From IMG/VR virus record IMGVR_UViG_2740892423_000010, positions 1 to 5,206 of that record: a DNA stretch of 5,206 nucleotides, one strand, 5' to 3'. This DNA comes from a virus. Its lineage: Duplodnaviria > Heunggongvirae > Uroviricota > Caudoviricetes. Under the pieces are notes generated by a model. That model was not told the DNA's origin. It worked only from the letters and a program-made list of their open reading frames with translations, and did not search any database. Of this stretch, positions 421 to 3,808 are shown piece after piece. Positions within the stretch are counted from its first letter, which is position 1. Each line of letters opens with the position of its first letter. Made by a program: the position numbers and the translations under genes.

Positions 421-464
421 AATCTACAATTAAAAACTGTTTTGTGTCAACAGTTTTTAATTGT
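421..464 (-). promoter_or_regulatory. Operator-overlapping promoter for the ydfA-like operon: palindrome ACAATTAAAAACTGT-N9-ACAGTTTTTAATTGT (426..464) with minus-strand -35 TTGACA (450..445) and -10 TAGATT (426..421)
   Basis: Perfect 15-bp inverted repeat with 9-bp spacer read directly from sequence. On the minus strand the spacer contains a consensus TTGACA, followed 18 nt later by TAGATT. Near-identical to the palindrome at 1462..1500. Confidence 0.55.
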
Positions 465-473
465 TGGGCTGGG

Positions 474-501
474 TAAAAAAAACTCCCTCGAATGAGGGAG
501 T
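474..501 (-). terminator. Rho-independent terminator ending the repressor-antitoxin-toxin operon
   Basis: On the minus strand: GC-rich hairpin ACTCCCTC-ATTC-GAGGGAGT (501..482) followed by a run of 8 T (plus-strand A-run 475..482), placed 17 nt after the toxin stop at 518. Confidence 0.6.
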
Positions 502-517
502 ATGAAAATTGTTCAGT

Positions 518-805
518 TCAGATAGGGAAGGGAAATTGTCGGCGGGCATGCACAATATTTGCAATTTCAATGCTTGAAGCTGCTACTCGGTACAAAACGA
601 TATAATTAGGGTGAACCACAATTTCCCGCAAACCGGATACTCGATCACTTGGCGGATATAGATATGGATGCTCGGAGAGGGCTAAAACAGACGTTTCAAT
701 ACGTATTTTTAGTCTGCGTGCTGCAGGAATATTTTCCTTAGCAATATAGGCTACGATCTGACGCAAATCATCGCGAGCAGATGGTAGCCATAAAATGGGT
801 AACAT
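518..805 (-). CDS. parE: ParE/RelE-family type II toxin (95 aa)
   Basis: Translation has the ParE-like pattern (N-terminal DL..I..YI helix region, C-terminal YRV...I.I..I.HARR). Its ATG overlaps the upstream antitoxin stop by 1 nt (TAATG on minus strand), typical of toxin-antitoxin coupling. Confidence 0.88.
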   Translation of the reverse strand: MLPILWLPSARDDLRQIVAYIAKENIPAARRLKIRIETSVLALSEHPYLYPPSDRVSGLREIVVHPNYIVLYRVAASSIEIANIVHARRQFPFPI

Positions 806-996
806 TACTCGCTCCTGTTAGTTACAGCAATTTGAGCAATAAGATTTTCTATTTCAGCCATTACCTCGTCATGTGGAATTGAGGGACGAGGGTCTGCAAG
901 GCTTGACGCCACTTTAGCGCGCAACCATTCGTTGTAACTGTTTTCTTGTTCGGTAGTTTCGAATTCTGAAACTATCGGAGAAAGGGCTGTACTCAT
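805..996 (-). CDS. paaA: Small antitoxin, PaaA-like (ParE-associated antitoxin), 63 aa
   Basis: 63-aa ORF directly upstream of and overlapping the toxin start. Strong RBS (GAGGAG, about 7 nt spacing). N-terminal half (ALSP.VSEFET.EQENSYNEWLRAKVA.SLADPRP.IPHDEV) matches my recollection of PaaA2 from E. coli O157:H7; family assignment is not search-verified. Confidence 0.8.
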   Translation of the reverse strand: MSTALSPIVSEFETTEQENSYNEWLRAKVASSLADPRPSIPHDEVMAEIENLIAQIAVTNRSE

Positions 997-1023: not shown

Positions 1024-1425
1024 TCATGCCCGGCGGCTTTTTTGTGCCGCCAACCACCGGGCAATGGTTTCTTCCATTGATTTTTTCTTGTCTTTGATTT
1101 CTTGAAGCATTTTTTCTTGGTCTTCCTCTGGAAACGCACTAAAAGCCTGGAGCAGTTCGCGTTGGCGAGGGCCAATTTTCATCGTGTCAGGGGTGAAAAT
1201 TTGCTCCCCCTCTTCAGGAGGCAATAAAAACCAATGCAATGGATGCCCTGTAACCTCAACCAGTTTATCCAAACTTGAGGCTTTAGGTGTAGCCTTACCG
1301 CTGACCCATTGTTGAACAGTTTGTTGTGTCACACCAATTCTACGGGCCAGCTCAGCCTGGCTCCATCCAGTTTCCTGAAGAAGCTTGCTGATTCTGTACA
1401 TAGATACTTCTAGAGCGTTCATCAT
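1024..1425 (-). CDS. paaR: HTH XRE-family phage repressor, DicA/PaaR-type (CI analogue), 133 aa
   Basis: Helix-turn-helix motif (WSQAELARRIGVTQQTVQQWVSG) plus a C-terminal segment (ELLQAFSAFPEEDQEKMLQEI) resembling DicA-type repressors. Divergent from a Cro-like gene and co-oriented with the antitoxin/toxin. No SD before the ATG at 1425, but a TAAAAT -10 sits 6 nt upstream, suggesting a leaderless mRNA. Alternative in-frame start at 1401 (MYRISK...). Confidence 0.85.
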   Translation of the reverse strand: MMNALEVSMYRISKLLQETGWSQAELARRIGVTQQTVQQWVSGKATPKASSLDKLVEVTGHPLHWFLLPPEEGEQIFTPDTMKIGPRQRELLQAFSAFPEEDQEKMLQEIKDKKKSMEETIARWLAAQKSRRA

Positions 1426-1534
1426 TATTCAATTTTACAGGTAAATACTGTTAAAAGCATCACAATAAAAAACTGTTGATCGCGTACAGTTTTTTATTGT
1501 AGGCTTTGCCTGTAGTTTTTTAGAGGAGGGCAAA
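1426..1534. promoter_or_regulatory. Divergent immunity control region: operator palindrome ACAATAAAAAACTGT-N9-ACAGTTTTTTATTGT (1462..1500), candidate plus-strand promoter for the Cro-like gene (-35 TTGATC 1476..1481, -10 TAGGCT 1500..1505), candidate minus-strand repressor promoter (-10 TAAAAT = plus 1432..1437)
   Basis: Perfect 15-bp inverted repeat with 9-bp spacer read from sequence. Promoter hexamers are by-eye matches to sigma70 consensus. The plus-strand promoter and operator have the same geometry as the 421..464 unit. Strong RBS AGAGGAGGG (1522..1530) before the ATG at 1535. Possible degenerate half-site TGTAGTTTTTTAG at 1511..1523. Confidence 0.6.
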
Positions 1535-1807
1535 ATGCTAGATAGCACTCGCGAAAAAATTAGGCAGAAATACACTCAAGCTGAAATAGGTCGTTATATG
1601 GGGGTCGCTCAACAGACTGTTTGGCAATGGTTTAGCTTTGGTGTTCCCCCAAAGCAGGTAATTCCGTTATGTCAGCTAATGAAGTGGGAAGTTACCCCGC
1701 ATGAAATTCGCCCTGATATTTATCCTAACCCAACCGACGGGCTGCCTTGTGGAAATAAGTGTATGGCGAATGAATCTCTGGCGGTGAACAATGAAAATCA
1801 CCCCTGA
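1535..1807 (+). CDS. ydaS: Cro-like HTH regulator, YdaS family (90 aa)
   Basis: Strong RBS. HTH motif (AEIGRYMGVAQQTVWQW) followed by a VTPHEIRPDIYPNPTDG segment that I recognise as characteristic of YdaS-type Cro analogues. Divergent from the repressor gene. Confidence 0.85.
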   Translation: MLDSTREKIRQKYTQAEIGRYMGVAQQTVWQWFSFGVPPKQVIPLCQLMKWEVTPHEIRPDIYPNPTDGLPCGNKCMANESLAVNNENHP

Positions 1808-2342
1808 ACAGGTTCGTGAGGCTCTGGATGCCTGGGTATGCCGACCAGGAATGACACAGGAGCAGGCGACGATATTAATCACGGAAGCATTCTGGGCTCT
1901 GAAAAAACGCCCGAACATTGATGTTCAACGCGTCACGTTTGATGATGGCGCGGTTGATCAACGGGCGCTGGGCGTTAACCGGGTGAAGATATTCGAACGC
2001 TGGAAAGCTATCGACACCAGGGATAAGCGTGAAAAATTCACGGCGCTGATTCCGGCAATTATGGAGGCTATCCGGATCAGCGATTTCAGGTTGTATTGTG
2101 AAATTACTGACGGAAAAAGCATTACGTACATGATCGCCGGGTTAAACAAAGAATATGGCGATGTGGTGGAGTCCGGGCTGCTTTTTGCGGATCCAGCTGT
2201 TGTGGAACGTGAGACTGACGAGCTTATAGAAAAAGCTATTGCTTTCAAGCACGCGTATCGTCAGCAATACCAATATTACTTTGCAGATAAACAAATATCT
2301 GTCTGGGGTTCGTATGAGTATCGATGCACTACGATGGGCTAA
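1791..2342 (+). CDS. ydaT: YdaT-like protein (CII-analogue candidate), 183 aa
   Basis: ATG at 1791 overlaps the ydaS-like 3' end by 17 nt (coupled translation). Position immediately after a YdaS-type Cro matches the ydaS-ydaT pair of Rac/CP-933-type prophages. Family assignment rests on position and recalled similarity, not a search. Confidence 0.7.
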   Translation: MKITPEQVREALDAWVCRPGMTQEQATILITEAFWALKKRPNIDVQRVTFDDGAVDQRALGVNRVKIFERWKAIDTRDKREKFTALIPAIMEAIRISDFRLYCEITDGKSITYMIAGLNKEYGDVVESGLLFADPAVVERETDELIEKAIAFKHAYRQQYQYYFADKQISVWGSYEYRCTTMG

Positions 2343-3354
2343 AAAGGTGAAAACCGGCAGTTCATCCAGTAAGTCAGTATTGACCTGGCTTGCTGATATG
2401 TGCGGTGCCGATTTGTGTGCATACCCGTCTGTATCTGCCCTGGCAGAAGTAACGGAACTGAACAAAAAGACTGTGCAGGACAGCTTACGACACCTGATGG
2501 AGATTGGGTTAATTGTTGATACCGGTGAGAGAAAAGGCAGAACAAAGCAAATTGTGGTGTACCGACTTATCGGTGTAGAAGAAAGTGTTGCCGAGCCTGA
2601 ATACACCCAAAAACGGGAGTCTTTAAAGGTGGGTAAAATTGGTGCTGTTAATAAAAACAGTACCGAAAACGGTTATGTTTCAGCACAAAACAGACCCAAA
2701 AACGGAACTCTTAACTGCATGGAAAATAACCAAAGACACCCAAATTTTCCATTAAAGACACCCAAAAACGGATCACGGAACCCAAAGGAACCCAAAGATC
2801 TAAACCCCACACATAACGCACGCGAGAGTGCTCCGACCAGTGAGCAGGAAGTTTTGTCGTTACAGGCAGTGCCACCCGTATTCCTGGATGGCCTGAGCGA
2901 ACCCATCGGAAAATTTCCGATGACCGATAGCTGGCATCCGTCACGGGATTTTCGACGACGGGCTGCGTTGTGGGGGATGGCTTTGTCGGAGCCGGAATTT
3001 ACACCTGCTGAACTTGCCGCATTCCGGGATTACTGGAGCGATGAGGGCAAAGTGTTCACGCAGGTTCAGTGGGAGCAGAAATTCGCCCGTCACGTAAATC
3101 ACGTCAGGGCGCAGGTTAAACCAGTCAGCAAGGGGGTAAACCATGCAGCAGCACCAGGTGGCACCGCATCACGGGCAGTTCAGGAAATTCGGGCAGCACG
3201 TGAGCAGTGGGAACGTGAAAACGGATTTATCAGCGACGGAAACGGCGTGGAAGCTGTGGGAACTCATGGGGGAGGTTTATTCGAACCGCTGGACCCAGAA
3301 GAACGGGGCCGCACCTTCGAAGCTCTGGATTGCACAGATTGGCGCGATGACTGA
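2314..3354 (+). CDS. Replication initiator (lambda O functional analogue): N-terminal winged-helix domain plus C-terminal DnaT-like domain, 346 aa from ATG 2314
   Basis: N-terminus (LRWAKKV...SVSALAEVTELNKKTVQDSLRHLMEIGLI) resembles replication-initiator wHTH domains. C-terminal segment GKFPMTDSWHPSRDFRRRAALWGMALSEPEFTPAELAAFRDYWSDEGKVFTQVQWEQKFAR closely resembles the C-terminal region of E. coli primosomal protein DnaT as I recall it. The ORF track starts at a TTG (2239); I prefer ATG 2314, which has a GGGG SD-like element 5 nt upstream. Confidence 0.8.
   Translation: MSIDALRWAKKVKTGSSSSKSVLTWLADMCGADLCAYPSVSALAEVTELNKKTVQDSLRHLMEIGLIVDTGERKGRTKQIVVYRLIGVEESVAEPEYTQKRESLKVGKIGAVNKNSTENGYVSAQNRPKNGTLNCMENNQRHPNFPLKTPKNGSRNPKEPKDLNPTHNARESAPTSEQEVLSLQAVPPVFLDGLSEPIGKFPMTDSWHPSRDFRRRAALWGMALSEPEFTPAELAAFRDYWSDEGKVFTQVQWEQKFARHVNHVRAQVKPVSKGVNHAAAPGGTASRAVQEIRAAREQWERENGFISDGNGVEAVGTHGGGLFEPLDPEERGRTFEALDCTDWRDD
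2603..2799. repeat. Iteron-like direct repeats (consensus about GACACCCAAAAACGG) inside the initiator gene linker; candidate origin of replication
   Basis: Direct repeats read from sequence: ACACCCAAAAACGG 2603..2616, AGACCCAAAAACGG 2692..2705, GACACCCAAA 2735..2744, GACACCCAAAAACGG 2757..2771, GGAACCCAAAG 2778..2788 and 2788..2798, with a degenerate copy ACCGAAAACGG at 2662..2672. Several start-to-start spacings are about 22 bp or multiples. They encode a low-complexity PKNG-rich linker between the two protein domains. Confidence 0.5.
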
Positions 3355-3808
3355 GCAGCAAATCCGTCAGGTCTGCCGCCAGTGCATGGACCGCTGCCGG
3401 ACGGGTGAAACATGGCCTCCGGACCTGGCTGAGTTTGTGGCGCTGATTTCGGAGAGTGGGGCAAATCCATTTGGTCTGACGGTGGATGCTGTGATGGAGG
3501 AGTACCGCCGCTGGCGCAATGAGTCTTGGCGATACGACGGAAGTGATAAGTACCCGTGGTCTCAGCCTGTGCTGTATCACATTTGCCTCGAGATGCGTTC
3601 AAAGGGGATTGAGCGCCAGATGACCGAAGGGGAATTAAAACGGCTTGCAGAACGGCAACTGACGAAATGGGCAAAGCATGTTGGTAACGGACTGAGTGTT
3701 CCACCCGTCCGTAGGCAACTGGCAGCACCCATACGTCCTGCGGGACCAACGCCAATTGAGTTGCTGAAACAGGAATATGAACGCAGGAAAGCGGCTGGTT
3801 TTGTTTGA
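3143..3808 (+). CDS. Lambda P-like replication protein (helicase loader), 221 aa
   Basis: Strong SD (AGGGGG 3131..3136, 6 nt before ATG 3143). Translation ([14 protein letters not shown] ... [15 protein letters not shown] ... [10 protein letters not shown]) parallels lambda P as I recall it (PFLPSPGQFVAWCRE ... YPWKSNAHYWLVTNL ... ELRRKAADEL). Overlaps the 3' end of the initiator gene by 212 nt in a different frame. Confidence 0.8.

What the first reader, a model, noticed from the sequence alone, without database searches (positions are those of the whole stretch)
1462..1500. Perfect 15-9-15 palindromic operator in the divergent repressor/Cro region
ACAATAAAAAACTGT-N9-ACAGTTTTTTATTGT is a perfect inverted repeat between the divergent repressor and Cro-like genes. 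A -35-like TTGATC begins at the last base of the left arm and a -10-like TAGGCT begins at the last base of the right arm, so a dimer bound here would occlude the Cro-like promoter. A weaker related half-site (TGTAGTTTTTTAG, 1511..1523) lies just downstream.
Basis: seen in the sequence. Interest (0 to 1): 0.6.

Follow-up and report, generated by a model that had tools for sequence, protein, structure and literature searches.

The report
Prophage repressor operators, 434-like, mirrored pair
The perfect 39-base palindrome is real, but it is best read as two adjacent 15-base repressor-binding sites lying over the early rightward promoter of a common E. coli lambda-like prophage, which makes it an ordinary though not yet described member of a well-known kind of genetic switch.

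Summary
The 15-9-15 inverted repeat at 1462-1500 is exact and far beyond chance. It lies in the immunity region of a lambdoid prophage of the Sakai Sp4 type (reported as CP-933M in EDL933). On one side is the operon of a short HTH repressor with a PaaA/ParE toxin-antitoxin pair. On the other side are YdaS (Cro-like) and YdaT (CII-like).

The unit that is recognised is not the 39-bp palindrome but each 15-bp arm, which has the form ACA-N9-TGT. This motif occurs exactly five times in the window:
- 1462-1476 and 1486-1500, the two arms
- 426-440 and 450-464, an OL-like pair over a strong leftward promoter

In 19 distinct close variants the arms never vary, while 6 of the 9 spacer bases do. Relatives with repressors 36-82% identical keep the same 15-bp sites and the same promoter overlap. 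Some of them carry the two sites as direct rather than mirrored copies.

The repressor's recognition helix (QQTVQQW) aligns with that of the phage 434 repressor (QQSIEQL), and YdaS carries QQTVWQW.

The "weaker half-site" at 1511-1523 is not conserved.

Verdict: a real operator and promoter complex, a new member of a known kind, of modest interest.

The parts
1486..1500 (.). OR1-like operator ACAGTTTTTTATTGT (right arm). It lies in the spacer of the rightward promoter, and its last T is the first base of the -10.
   Evidence: 0 of 15 positions vary in 19 unique close variants. The position relative to the -10 is kept in relatives with repressors 36-82% identical.
1462..1476 (.). OR2-like operator ACAATAAAAAACTGT (left arm). 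Its last T is the first base of the PR -35. Its centre is about 44 bp upstream of the repressor start codon.
   Evidence: 0 of 15 positions vary.
1437..1451 (.). OR3-like operator ACAGGTAAATACTGT, lying between the -10 and -35 of the repressor promoter.
   Evidence: It is one of only five ACA-N9-TGT sites in the window. 1 of 15 positions varies, and that one is central. An equivalent site is present in all relatives examined.
1476..1505 (+). Predicted PR-like promoter for ydaS-ydaT: -35 TTGATC (1476-1481), 18-nt spacer, -10 TAGGCT (1500-1505). The start is expected near 1511-1513.
   Evidence: Sequence. TTGA and TA...T are conserved while spacer bases 1481-1485 vary freely. The consensus scan did not call it because it matches only 7 of 12 positions.
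1425..1437 (-). Predicted PRM-like promoter -10 TAAAAT (1437..1432), then 6 nt, then the ATG at 1425. This implies a leaderless repressor mRNA. The -35 is poor (ATGCTT, 1460..1455).
   Evidence: The TAAAAT-6 nt-ATG geometry, with no Shine-Dalgarno sequence, is conserved in all relatives. CP-933P has the same geometry, GATAAT-TACCAC-ATG, and there 5' RACE showed that paaR2 is leaderless (PMC8630535).
1024..1425 (-). Repressor, 133 aa. The N-terminal domain is a five-helix HTH with recognition helix QQTVQQW. After a disordered linker comes a C-terminal helical domain shared with PaaR2. There is no S24 peptidase domain.
1535..1807 (+). YdaS-family Cro-like protein, 90 aa, recognition helix QQTVWQW.
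   Evidence: Pfam YdaS family hit. 42% identical to the repressor across the HTH.
426..464 (.). OL-like pair: ACAATTAAAAACTGT (426-440) and ACAGTTTTTAATTGT (450-464), 24 bp centre to centre.
   Evidence: Equivalent pairs are found in relatives.
421..450 (-). Predicted PL-like promoter TTGACA-18-TAGATT, reading leftward toward the DUF1391 gene (89-322). It is in the same register with its operators as PR.
   Evidence: 10 of 12 matches.
482..501 (-). Intrinsic terminator of the repressor-paaA-parE operon. It separates that operon from the OL/PL region.

Best explanation
The palindrome is the OR2 plus OR1 part of a three-site right operator in a lambdoid prophage immunity region of the Sp4 (reported CP-933M) type.

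The binding unit is a 15-bp site, ACA(A/G)(T/G)-W5-(A/C)(C/T)TGT. Each site is read by one dimer of the 133-aa repressor through a 434-like helix whose first two glutamines would contact ACA.

Two dimers bound 24 bp apart at 1462-1476 and 1486-1500 bracket the -35 and fill the spacer of the ydaS-ydaT promoter, and so shut it off. The dimer on 1462-1476 sits next to the weak -35 of the leaderless repressor promoter and could activate it, as lambda CI does from OR2. The third site, 1437-1451, lies inside that promoter and would give negative autoregulation or repression by YdaS.

A matching pair at 426-464 controls a leftward promoter. It could be bridged to OR by the PaaR2-like oligomerisation domain.

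YdaS has nearly the same recognition helix and most likely competes for the same sites.

Shown here: the anatomy, the conservation, and the co-occurrence with the repressor. Inferred: binding, stoichiometry, order of occupancy, activation and looping.
For: 1. ACA-N9-TGT occurs five times in 5206 nt against 1.3 expected. All five lie in the two regulatory gaps, 24-25 bp apart. A stricter pattern finds only these five in 40.8 kb of the prophage and its flank.
2. Among 19 unique close variants, 0 of 30 arm positions and 1 of 15 OR3 positions vary. By contrast 6 of 9 spacer positions and 11 of 34 downstream positions vary.
3. Relatives with repressors 82, 69, 65-67, 49 and 36% identical keep three 15-bp sites. 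In each, the -35 starts on the last T of OR2, the -10 on the last T of OR1, and TAAAAT-6 nt-ATG lies beside OR3.
4. In the QQSVQKW clade, in L122 and in the OL of L042, the paired sites are direct rather than mirrored. The 15-mer is therefore the unit.
5. The repressor HTH aligns best with the phage 434 repressor. Q34, Q35 and Q39 fall on 434 residues Q28, Q29 and Q33. The model has a five-helix N-terminal domain with pLDDT around 90, and 434 is among the structural matches at 32-35% identity.
6. Half-site positions 1-3 are A, C, A in 40, 39 and 40 of 40 half-sites.
7. YdaS is 42% identical to the repressor over the HTH and carries QQTVWQW.
8. The exact palindrome is found in 40 IMG/VR contigs. 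These are exactly the 40 contigs that encode a repressor at least 92% identical to this one.
9. In the heteroimmune CP-933P switch, PaaR2 and YdaS were shown by EMSA, footprinting and reporters to bind repeated sites over PR, PRM and PL. Its repressor mRNA is leaderless and PaaR2 forms octamers (PMC8630535). The window repressor shares its C-terminal region, 42% identity over 98 aligned residues.
Against: No binding or transcription data exist for this immunity type. The PR hexamers are weak (7 of 12) and the promoter scan did not call them. The sites are 15 bp long, not 14 bp as in 434, so a 434-like docking geometry is only an analogy. At OR the mirrored arrangement is kept in three lineages (15, 13 and 12 of 15 positions). 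A model of independent dimers does not by itself explain that. Only two OL sites were found, not three. The apparent link between the helix change Q39K and half-sites such as ACAC(T/C) or ACAAC rests on few lineages, some with degenerate second half-sites.
Confidence: 0.78

Rival explanations
1. The 39-bp palindrome is one composite site read as a whole by a preassembled two-fold-symmetric tetramer or larger oligomer. In this reading the mirror symmetry, including the non-contacted A-tracts, is itself required, for example for symmetric DNA bending around the -35.
For: The arms are perfectly complementary at both OR and OL in the window, and the OL arms differ from the OR arms by a paired change. 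Mirrored identity exceeds direct identity at OR in the window (15 against 8), in L044 (13 against 8) and slightly in L051 (12 against 11). PaaR2 forms octamers and the C-terminal region is shared.
Against: OR3 is a solitary site. In L042 the OL pair is direct (12 against 9). The QQSVQKW clade and L122 keep the same promoter overlap with direct repeats. Sakai Sp4 has an imperfect OL with a 10-nt spacer.
Confidence: 0.12
2. A single repressor dimer binds the two 15-nt arms as its two half-sites.
For: The inverted repeat is perfect and sits over the promoter.
Against: The arm centres are 24 bp apart, more than two helical turns. HTH dimers of this fold use sites of about 14-18 bp (434 uses 14 bp). 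Each arm has its own internal ACA...TGT symmetry. A lone 15-mer exists at 1437-1451. Relatives carry direct repeats.
Confidence: 0.04
3. The palindrome works as a nucleic-acid hairpin: an RNA stem-loop or terminator on read-through or PRE-type transcripts, or a DNA cruciform.
For: As RNA it folds at about -19 kcal/mol, with z-scores of -3.9 to -7.5. The OL copy is flagged as terminator-like on the minus strand.
Against: Any perfect palindrome folds this way. The stems are A/T-rich, with 3 G-C pairs, and lack a proper U-tract. The palindrome lies upstream of both predicted starts, so the PR and PRM transcripts do not contain it. Complementarity decays to 12-13 of 15 or is lost in relatives while the ACA/TGT ends and the promoter register persist.
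Confidence: 0.03
4. The sites are operators, but their perfect mirror identity is a neutral by-product. Quasi-palindrome template switching during replication would repeatedly copy one arm onto the other, without selection for symmetry.
For: The OL arms carry a paired A-to-T change relative to the OR arms. Single-arm intermediates exist in Sakai Sp4, L025 and L038. Template-switch correction of quasi-palindromes is an established E. coli mutational pathway (general knowledge, not tested here).
Against: This explains only the perfection, not the function. The arms are invariant in all 40 close IMG/VR relatives even though the neighbouring spacer varies, which points to purifying selection.
Confidence: 0.3

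Closest known systems
PaaR2 / YdaS / YdaT switch of cryptic prophage CP-933P (Sp12) of E. coli O157:H7 (Jurenas et al. 2021, PMC8630535)
   Same: The gene order is the same: repressor-paaA-parE on one side, ydaS-ydaT on the other, followed by replication genes. Both have a short repressor without a cleavage domain, and the C-terminal regions are related (42% identity over 98 aligned residues). Both have the -10, 6 nt, ATG geometry of a leaderless repressor mRNA, an 18-nt PR spacer, and operator clusters at PR/PRM and at a PL.
   Different: The N-terminal DNA-binding domains are unrelated, and so are the YdaS proteins. The operators differ: 18-bp GTTTAGTAA-type repeats in CP-933P against 15-bp ACA-N9-TGT here. 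The window matches the 'homologue on CP-933M' that the paper mentions but does not study. Its repressor is 98% identical to the one encoded at the equivalent locus of O157:H7 strain SS17. Sakai Sp4 has the same gene order and an identical OR palindrome.
Phage 434 OR/OL operators with the 434 repressor and Cro
   Same: The ACA ends are invariant, position 4 is A or G, the centre is A/T-rich, and there are three sites in OR. Repressor and Cro share a QQ-initiated recognition helix. For 434: 14-bp sites, the outer 5+5 bases contacted, the inner bases read indirectly (PMC1636474).
   Different: The sites are 15 bp, not 14 bp. Only two OL sites were found. The repressor has a PaaR2-type helical C-terminal domain instead of a RecA-cleavable S24 domain. 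The two proteins are only about 30-35% identical over the HTH.
Phage lambda OR1-OR2-OR3 / PR / PRM
   Same: Three operators lie between divergent promoters, a second cluster sits at PL, the cI mRNA is leaderless, and PRM has a weak -35 next to OR2. Lambda's 24-bp and 23-bp centre spacings are quoted from memory.
   Different: Operator sequence and length are unrelated (17 bp in lambda). The repressor architecture differs. Here each operator ends exactly on the first T of a promoter hexamer.
RacR / YdaS / YdaT of the E. coli K-12 Rac prophage (PMC11879457, PMC9638921)
   Same: A YdaS-family Cro analogue and a YdaT-family CII analogue lie next to a divergent repressor gene.
   Different: RacR is a different repressor with different sites. 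YdaT binds within the racR-ydaS intergenic region in Rac. No CP-933P-type YdaT box was found near the palindrome.
Gifsy-1 / Gifsy-2 repressors (Salmonella)
   Same: About 33% identical over residues 11-111. They are likewise short repressors without a cleavage domain. Control of these repressors by antirepressors is recalled from the literature.
   Different: Their operators were not compared here. No antirepressor was identified in the window.

Membership tests
Lambdoid immunity operator (OR/OL of a CI/Cro-type switch) | Lies between divergently transcribed repressor and cro-like genes | tested here: met
   HTH repressor at 1024-1425 (-) and YdaS at 1535-1807 (+). The context is a prophage: int, xis, exo, dicB on one side and replication, Q, lysis and terminase genes on the other.
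Lambdoid immunity operator (OR/OL of a CI/Cro-type switch) | Several related sites about two helical turns apart, overlapping both divergent promoters | tested here: met
   Three ACA-N9-TGT sites with centres at 1444, 1469 and 1493. They overlap the predicted PR and PRM.
Lambdoid immunity operator (OR/OL of a CI/Cro-type switch) | A second cluster at a leftward early promoter | tested here: met
   426-464 with TTGACA-18-TAGATT on the minus strand.
Lambdoid immunity operator (OR/OL of a CI/Cro-type switch) | Operator sequence travels with repressor specificity | tested here: met
   The exact palindrome is in 40 IMG/VR contigs, the same 40 that encode a repressor at least 92% identical. Clades with a changed helix have changed half-sites.
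Lambdoid immunity operator (OR/OL of a CI/Cro-type switch) | Bound by repressor and by Cro, with mutually exclusive promoter states | not testable with these tools
   Needs EMSA, footprinting and reporter assays.
CP-933P PaaR2/YdaS operators | Repressor DNA-binding domain homologous to the PaaR2 N-terminal domain (PDB 7NKV, 8C3K) | tested here: not met
   BLASTP aligns only window residues 37-133 with PaaR2. The recognition helices do not align. PaaR2 N-terminal structures are not among the PDB sequence hits for the window protein.
CP-933P PaaR2/YdaS operators | 18-bp repeats with half-site GTTTAGTAA | tested here: not met
   The CP-933P intergenic sequence compared with the window sequence.
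CP-933P PaaR2/YdaS operators | Three-gene repressor-PaaA-ParE operon opposite ydaS-ydaT | tested here: met
Phage 434-type operator | 14-bp site, ACAA-N6-TTGT | tested here: not met
   All sites are 15 bp (ACA-N9-TGT). No site with N8 spacing falls in the regulatory regions.
Phage 434-type operator | Recognition helix Q-Q-x-x-x-Q paired with invariant ACA | tested here: met
   Alignment to 434 repressor residues 28-33. Half-site counts.
Phage 434-type operator | Repressor with a RecA-stimulated autocleavage (S24) domain | tested here: not met
   No Peptidase_S24 hit. The C-terminus is two helices.
LexA (SOS) box | CTGT-N8-ACAG | tested here: not met
   The inner ends of the arms give CTGT-N9-ACAG at OR and OL, and N10 in Sakai OL. 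The intervening bases are hypervariable.
Intrinsic terminator | G+C-rich stem followed by a U-tract, conserved pairing | tested here: not met
   The stems have 3 G-C pairs and no U-tract at OR. Pairing is lost in relatives.

The most novel reading that the evidence does not exclude
The exact mirror identity of the two operators is functional, including bases that by analogy with 434 are not contacted. In this reading a PaaR2-like preassembled oligomer reads a two-fold-symmetric 39-bp unit whose oppositely oriented A-tracts bend the DNA symmetrically around the PR -35. The odd-length (15-bp) 434-like site would then define a distinct dimer geometry.

Alternatively, quasi-palindrome template switching keeps the arms identical. 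That would make these roughly 500 E. coli copies a natural record of that mutational process acting on a regulatory element.
Probability: 0.15. Interest if true: 0.5.

Novelty: new member of a known kind. Interest (0 to 1): 0.3.

Why it matters
This immunity region is present in 509 of 5426 complete E. coli genomes, including prophage Sp4 of O157:H7 Sakai, and nothing is annotated over the intergenic region.

Defining its operators gives several things. It gives the immunity specificity of one of the many lambdoid prophages of enterohaemorrhagic E. coli. It predicts which prophages cross-repress one another. It explains how the embedded PaaA/ParE toxin-antitoxin operon is transcribed.

It also offers a clean comparison with the experimentally studied CP-933P switch. 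The two share an oligomerisation scaffold and promoter skeleton but differ in DNA-binding domain and operators.

It does not change the general picture of how such switches work.

Tried and rejected
- **No sequenced phage carries this region.** A DNA search of 50,697 phage records found no match. Protein-level hits were all below 60% identity.
- **Phage phi467 CI.** It is 53% identical over the HTH, but it has a different helix (SAQSVQYW), an S24-type C-terminal domain and no ACA-N9-TGT sites, so it does not share this specificity.
- **Genome scan.** The scan of genome contigs returned a single relative, from Arsenophonus.
- **LexA box.** The spacing is off by one and the centre is variable.
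- **FNR or CRP site.** Only a TTGAT half-site is present in the spacer, and it is better explained as the -35.
- **YdaT box (TTGATT-N6-AATCAA).** None lies near the palindrome, and the matches elsewhere are at the chance level.
- **Terminator-like hairpin at 1496-1516.** Its stem bases vary in close relatives.
It varies, including in the length of the T-run.
- **14-bp operator variants in strain SS17.** Sakai Sp4 has 15 bp at the same places, so these are probably homopolymer length errors.
- **Literature.** A search for the arm sequences found only an unrelated primer match. Hallez et al. 2010 is not held. Table S1 of PMC8630535 is held without its content.
- **Structure prediction.** A single-sequence model was used instead.

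Full report
**Observation.** The window has ACAATAAAAAACTGT at 1462-1476 and its exact reverse complement ACAGTTTTTTATTGT at 1486-1500, separated by TGATCGCGT. In 300 Markov simulations of the window, the longest perfect inverted repeat with a spacer of 30 nt or less never exceeded 13 nt.

**Context.** The flanking genes are as follows:
- 1024-1425 (-): a 133-aa HTH_3 protein.
- 805-996 (-) and 518-805 (-): a PaaA2-family antitoxin and a ParE toxin.
- 1535-1807 (+): a YdaS-family protein.
- 1791-2342 (+): a YdaT-family protein.
- Downstream: replication genes carrying a DnaT domain and a lambda P domain.

In a 99.4%-identical E. coli chromosome, this block lies in a lambdoid prophage beside ompW. 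The genes int, xis, exo and dicB are to its left. Replication, Q, lysis and terminase genes are to its right.

The closest studied system is the paaR2-paaA2-parE2 / ydaS-ydaT switch of CP-933P (PMC8630535). In that system PaaR2 and YdaS were shown by EMSA, footprinting, 5' RACE and reporters to act like CI and Cro on repeated sites over PR, PRM and PL. PaaR2 mRNA is leaderless, and PaaR2 forms octamers.

The window is not that locus. True PaaR2 (Sakai Sp12, MQKKE...) aligns with the window repressor only over window residues 37-133, at 42% identity, and its YdaS is unrelated. Its operators are 18-bp GTTTAGTAA-type repeats.

The window repressor is 98% identical to the repressor at the equivalent locus of O157:H7 strain SS17. 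Sakai prophage Sp4 has the same gene order and carries the identical 15-9-15 palindrome. This corresponds to the "homologue on CP-933M" that the paper mentions without studying. I found no paper describing its operators.

**What the unit is.** Each arm is itself a pseudo-palindrome of the form ACA-N9-TGT. That motif occurs exactly five times in the window, against 1.3 expected. All five lie in two regulatory gaps: 1437-1451, 1462-1476 and 1486-1500, with centres 25 and 24 bp apart, and 426-440 and 450-464, 24 bp apart. A stricter version of the pattern finds only these five in 40.8 kb of the prophage and its flank.

The pair at 426-464 is another perfect palindrome, with one symmetric change in each arm. 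Read on the minus strand it carries TTGACA-18-TAGATT in the same register as the OR hexamers. It follows the terminator of the repressor operon at 501-482. It is therefore an OL/PL analogue.

**Conservation.** I compared 19 unique close intergenic variants, drawn from the window and 39 close IMG/VR relatives (repressors 98-100% identical). The numbers of variable positions were:
- both arms: 0 of 30
- 1437-1451: 1 of 15, a central position
- the spacer: 6 of 9
- 1501-1534: 11 of 34

In the spacer, T1477, A1479 and T1480 are invariant, and G1478 differs in only one variant. The -10 varies as TAGNNT.

The exact palindrome occurs in 40 IMG/VR contigs. These are exactly the 40 contigs that encode a repressor at least 92% identical to this one.

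**More distant relatives.** Relatives with repressors 82%, 69%, 65-67%, 49% and 36% identical keep the architecture:
- a 15-bp site whose last T starts the -35 (TTGAYN),
- a 15-bp site whose last T starts the -10,
- a third site abutting the -10 of a TAAAAT-6 nt-ATG element upstream of the repressor gene.

That element has the same geometry as GATAAT-TACCAC-ATG in CP-933P, where leaderless transcription was demonstrated.

In the QQSVQKW clade, in L122 and in the OL of L042, the paired sites are direct rather than mirrored. In L044 the arms are only 13 of 15 complementary. The 15-mer, not the 39-mer, is therefore the conserved unit. A site of 14-18 bp fits one HTH dimer, whereas arm centres 24 bp apart do not.

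**Reading head.** The best PDB sequence match of the repressor is the phage 434 repressor. Q34, Q35 and Q39 align with 434 residues Q28, Q29 and Q33. From the 434 literature, as I recall it, those residues contact ACA and position 4.

A single-sequence AlphaFold model gives a confident five-helix N-terminal domain, a disordered linker and a long C-terminal helix. The fold search returns generic Xre, SinR, P22 c2 and 434 domains, with 434 having the highest identity among them.

Over 20 unique operators from loci with the QQTVQQW helix, half-site positions 1-3 are A, C, A in 40, 39 and 40 of 40 cases. Position 4 is A or G, position 5 is T or G, and the centre is A/T-rich. Clades with Q39K have half-sites such as ACAC(T/C), ACACC and ACAAC instead. 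This is suggestive covariation only.

YdaS is 42% identical to the repressor across the HTH and carries QQTVWQW. This parallels the 434 repressor/Cro pair and predicts competition for the same sites.

In phage 434 the sites are 14 bp, there are three per operator region, the outer 5+5 bases are contacted and the inner bases are read indirectly (PMC1636474). Here the sites are 15 bp, OL has two sites, and the repressor lacks an S24 domain. The window operator resembles 434 in how it works but does not belong to that family.

**Mechanism proposed.** Binding, stoichiometry and order of occupancy are all inferred.
- Two repressor dimers at OR2 (1462-1476) and OR1 (1486-1500) bracket the -35 and fill the spacer of PR, and so silence ydaS-ydaT.
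- The OR2 dimer is centred about 44 bp upstream of the leaderless start at 1425, next to a poor -35 (ATGCTT). It could activate PRM. In CP-933P, low PaaR2 levels activated PRM933P.
- OR3 (1437-1451) covers -12 to -26 of PRM and would shut it off at high repressor levels or when YdaS is bound.
- OL (426-464) controls PL. The PaaR2-like C-terminal domain could bridge OL and OR, whose pair centres are 1036 bp apart.

**What remains unexplained.** At OR the mirrored orientation of OR2 and OR1 is kept in three lineages with different half-site flavours:

| Lineage | Outer half-sites | Inner half-sites |
|---|---|---|
| Window | ACAAT | ACAGT |
| L044 | ACAAG | ACAGT |
| L051 | A(C/A)AAG | ACAAT |

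In the window the identity extends to the central A-tract. There are two candidate explanations: selection for a two-fold-symmetric tetramer-DNA complex, or neutral homogenisation by quasi-palindrome template switching. Single-arm intermediates at OL in Sakai Sp4, L025 and L038 are compatible with either.

**Rivals rejected.**
- A hairpin or terminator role. Any palindrome folds, there is no U-tract, the palindrome lies upstream of both predicted transcription starts, and pairing is lost in relatives.
- A LexA box. The inner ends give CTGT-N9-ACAG with a hypervariable centre.
- A CP-933P-type YdaT box. None is found nearby.

**Verdict.** This is a real, strongly constrained operator and promoter complex.

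It is a previously undescribed immunity specificity within a known kind of lambdoid switch. The region is present in 509 of 5426 complete E. coli genomes.

Noticed in passing
window 1700-1810: There is a mosaic junction near the 3' end of ydaS. Many E. coli matches to 1000-1850 stop at about window position 1740. The last ~20 residues of YdaS differ from the O157:H7 SS17 copy, while residues 1-71 are identical. YdaT here is 183 aa, against 141 aa in Sakai Sp4 and SS17.
   Followed up: partly
window 1784-1801: GTGAAC-AATGAA-AATCAC spans the ydaT start codon and matches 13 of 18 positions of the Rac YdaT box ATGATT-CATGAA-AATCAA, whose spacer ATG is also the ydaT start (PMC11879457). This may be a YdaT site, or it may only reflect the conserved MKI coding sequence.
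   Followed up: no
window 518-996: The PaaA/ParE pair is only 85.4% identical in DNA to the copies found in O157:H7 genomes, although the adjacent repressor protein is 98% identical. Versions at least 95% identical occur in only about 63 genomes. The toxin-antitoxin cassette and the repressor appear to have partly separate histories.
   Followed up: partly
window 2719-2752 and 2904-2922: Two perfect 9-nt inverted repeats lie inside the O-like replication gene: ATGGAAAAT-N16-ATTTTCCAT and CATCGGAAA-A-TTTCCGATG. They may be origin elements, since the lambda origin lies within gene O.
   Followed up: no
window 2239-3354 and 3143-3808: The mechanically listed ORFs for the DnaT-domain protein and the lambda P-like protein overlap by about 210 nt. 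The true starts are probably internal. The replication module differs from that of the otherwise near-identical prophage L001, which has a DnaC-like ATPase.
   Followed up: no
L116-L123 (IMG/VR): Relatives with helix QQSVQRW have no intergenic region upstream of the repressor gene. Instead the gene directly follows another gene whose product ends in a PaaR-like C-terminus (...FSAFPDNEQQEIIKELRNKKEAMEDLVARWLARQGRRA). These are two tandem PaaR-type repressor genes.
   Followed up: no
L052 2745-2785 and 1710-1750 (O157:H7 SS17): In this assembly OR1 and the left OL site are 14 bp, with one A/T fewer in the run. Sakai Sp4 has 15 bp at both places. This is probably a homopolymer sequencing error, but if real it would be a 434-length operator.
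   Followed up: partly
window 1496-1516: The scan flags a terminator-like hairpin overlapping the PR -10 and the predicted start. Its stem bases vary among close relatives.
   Followed up: yes
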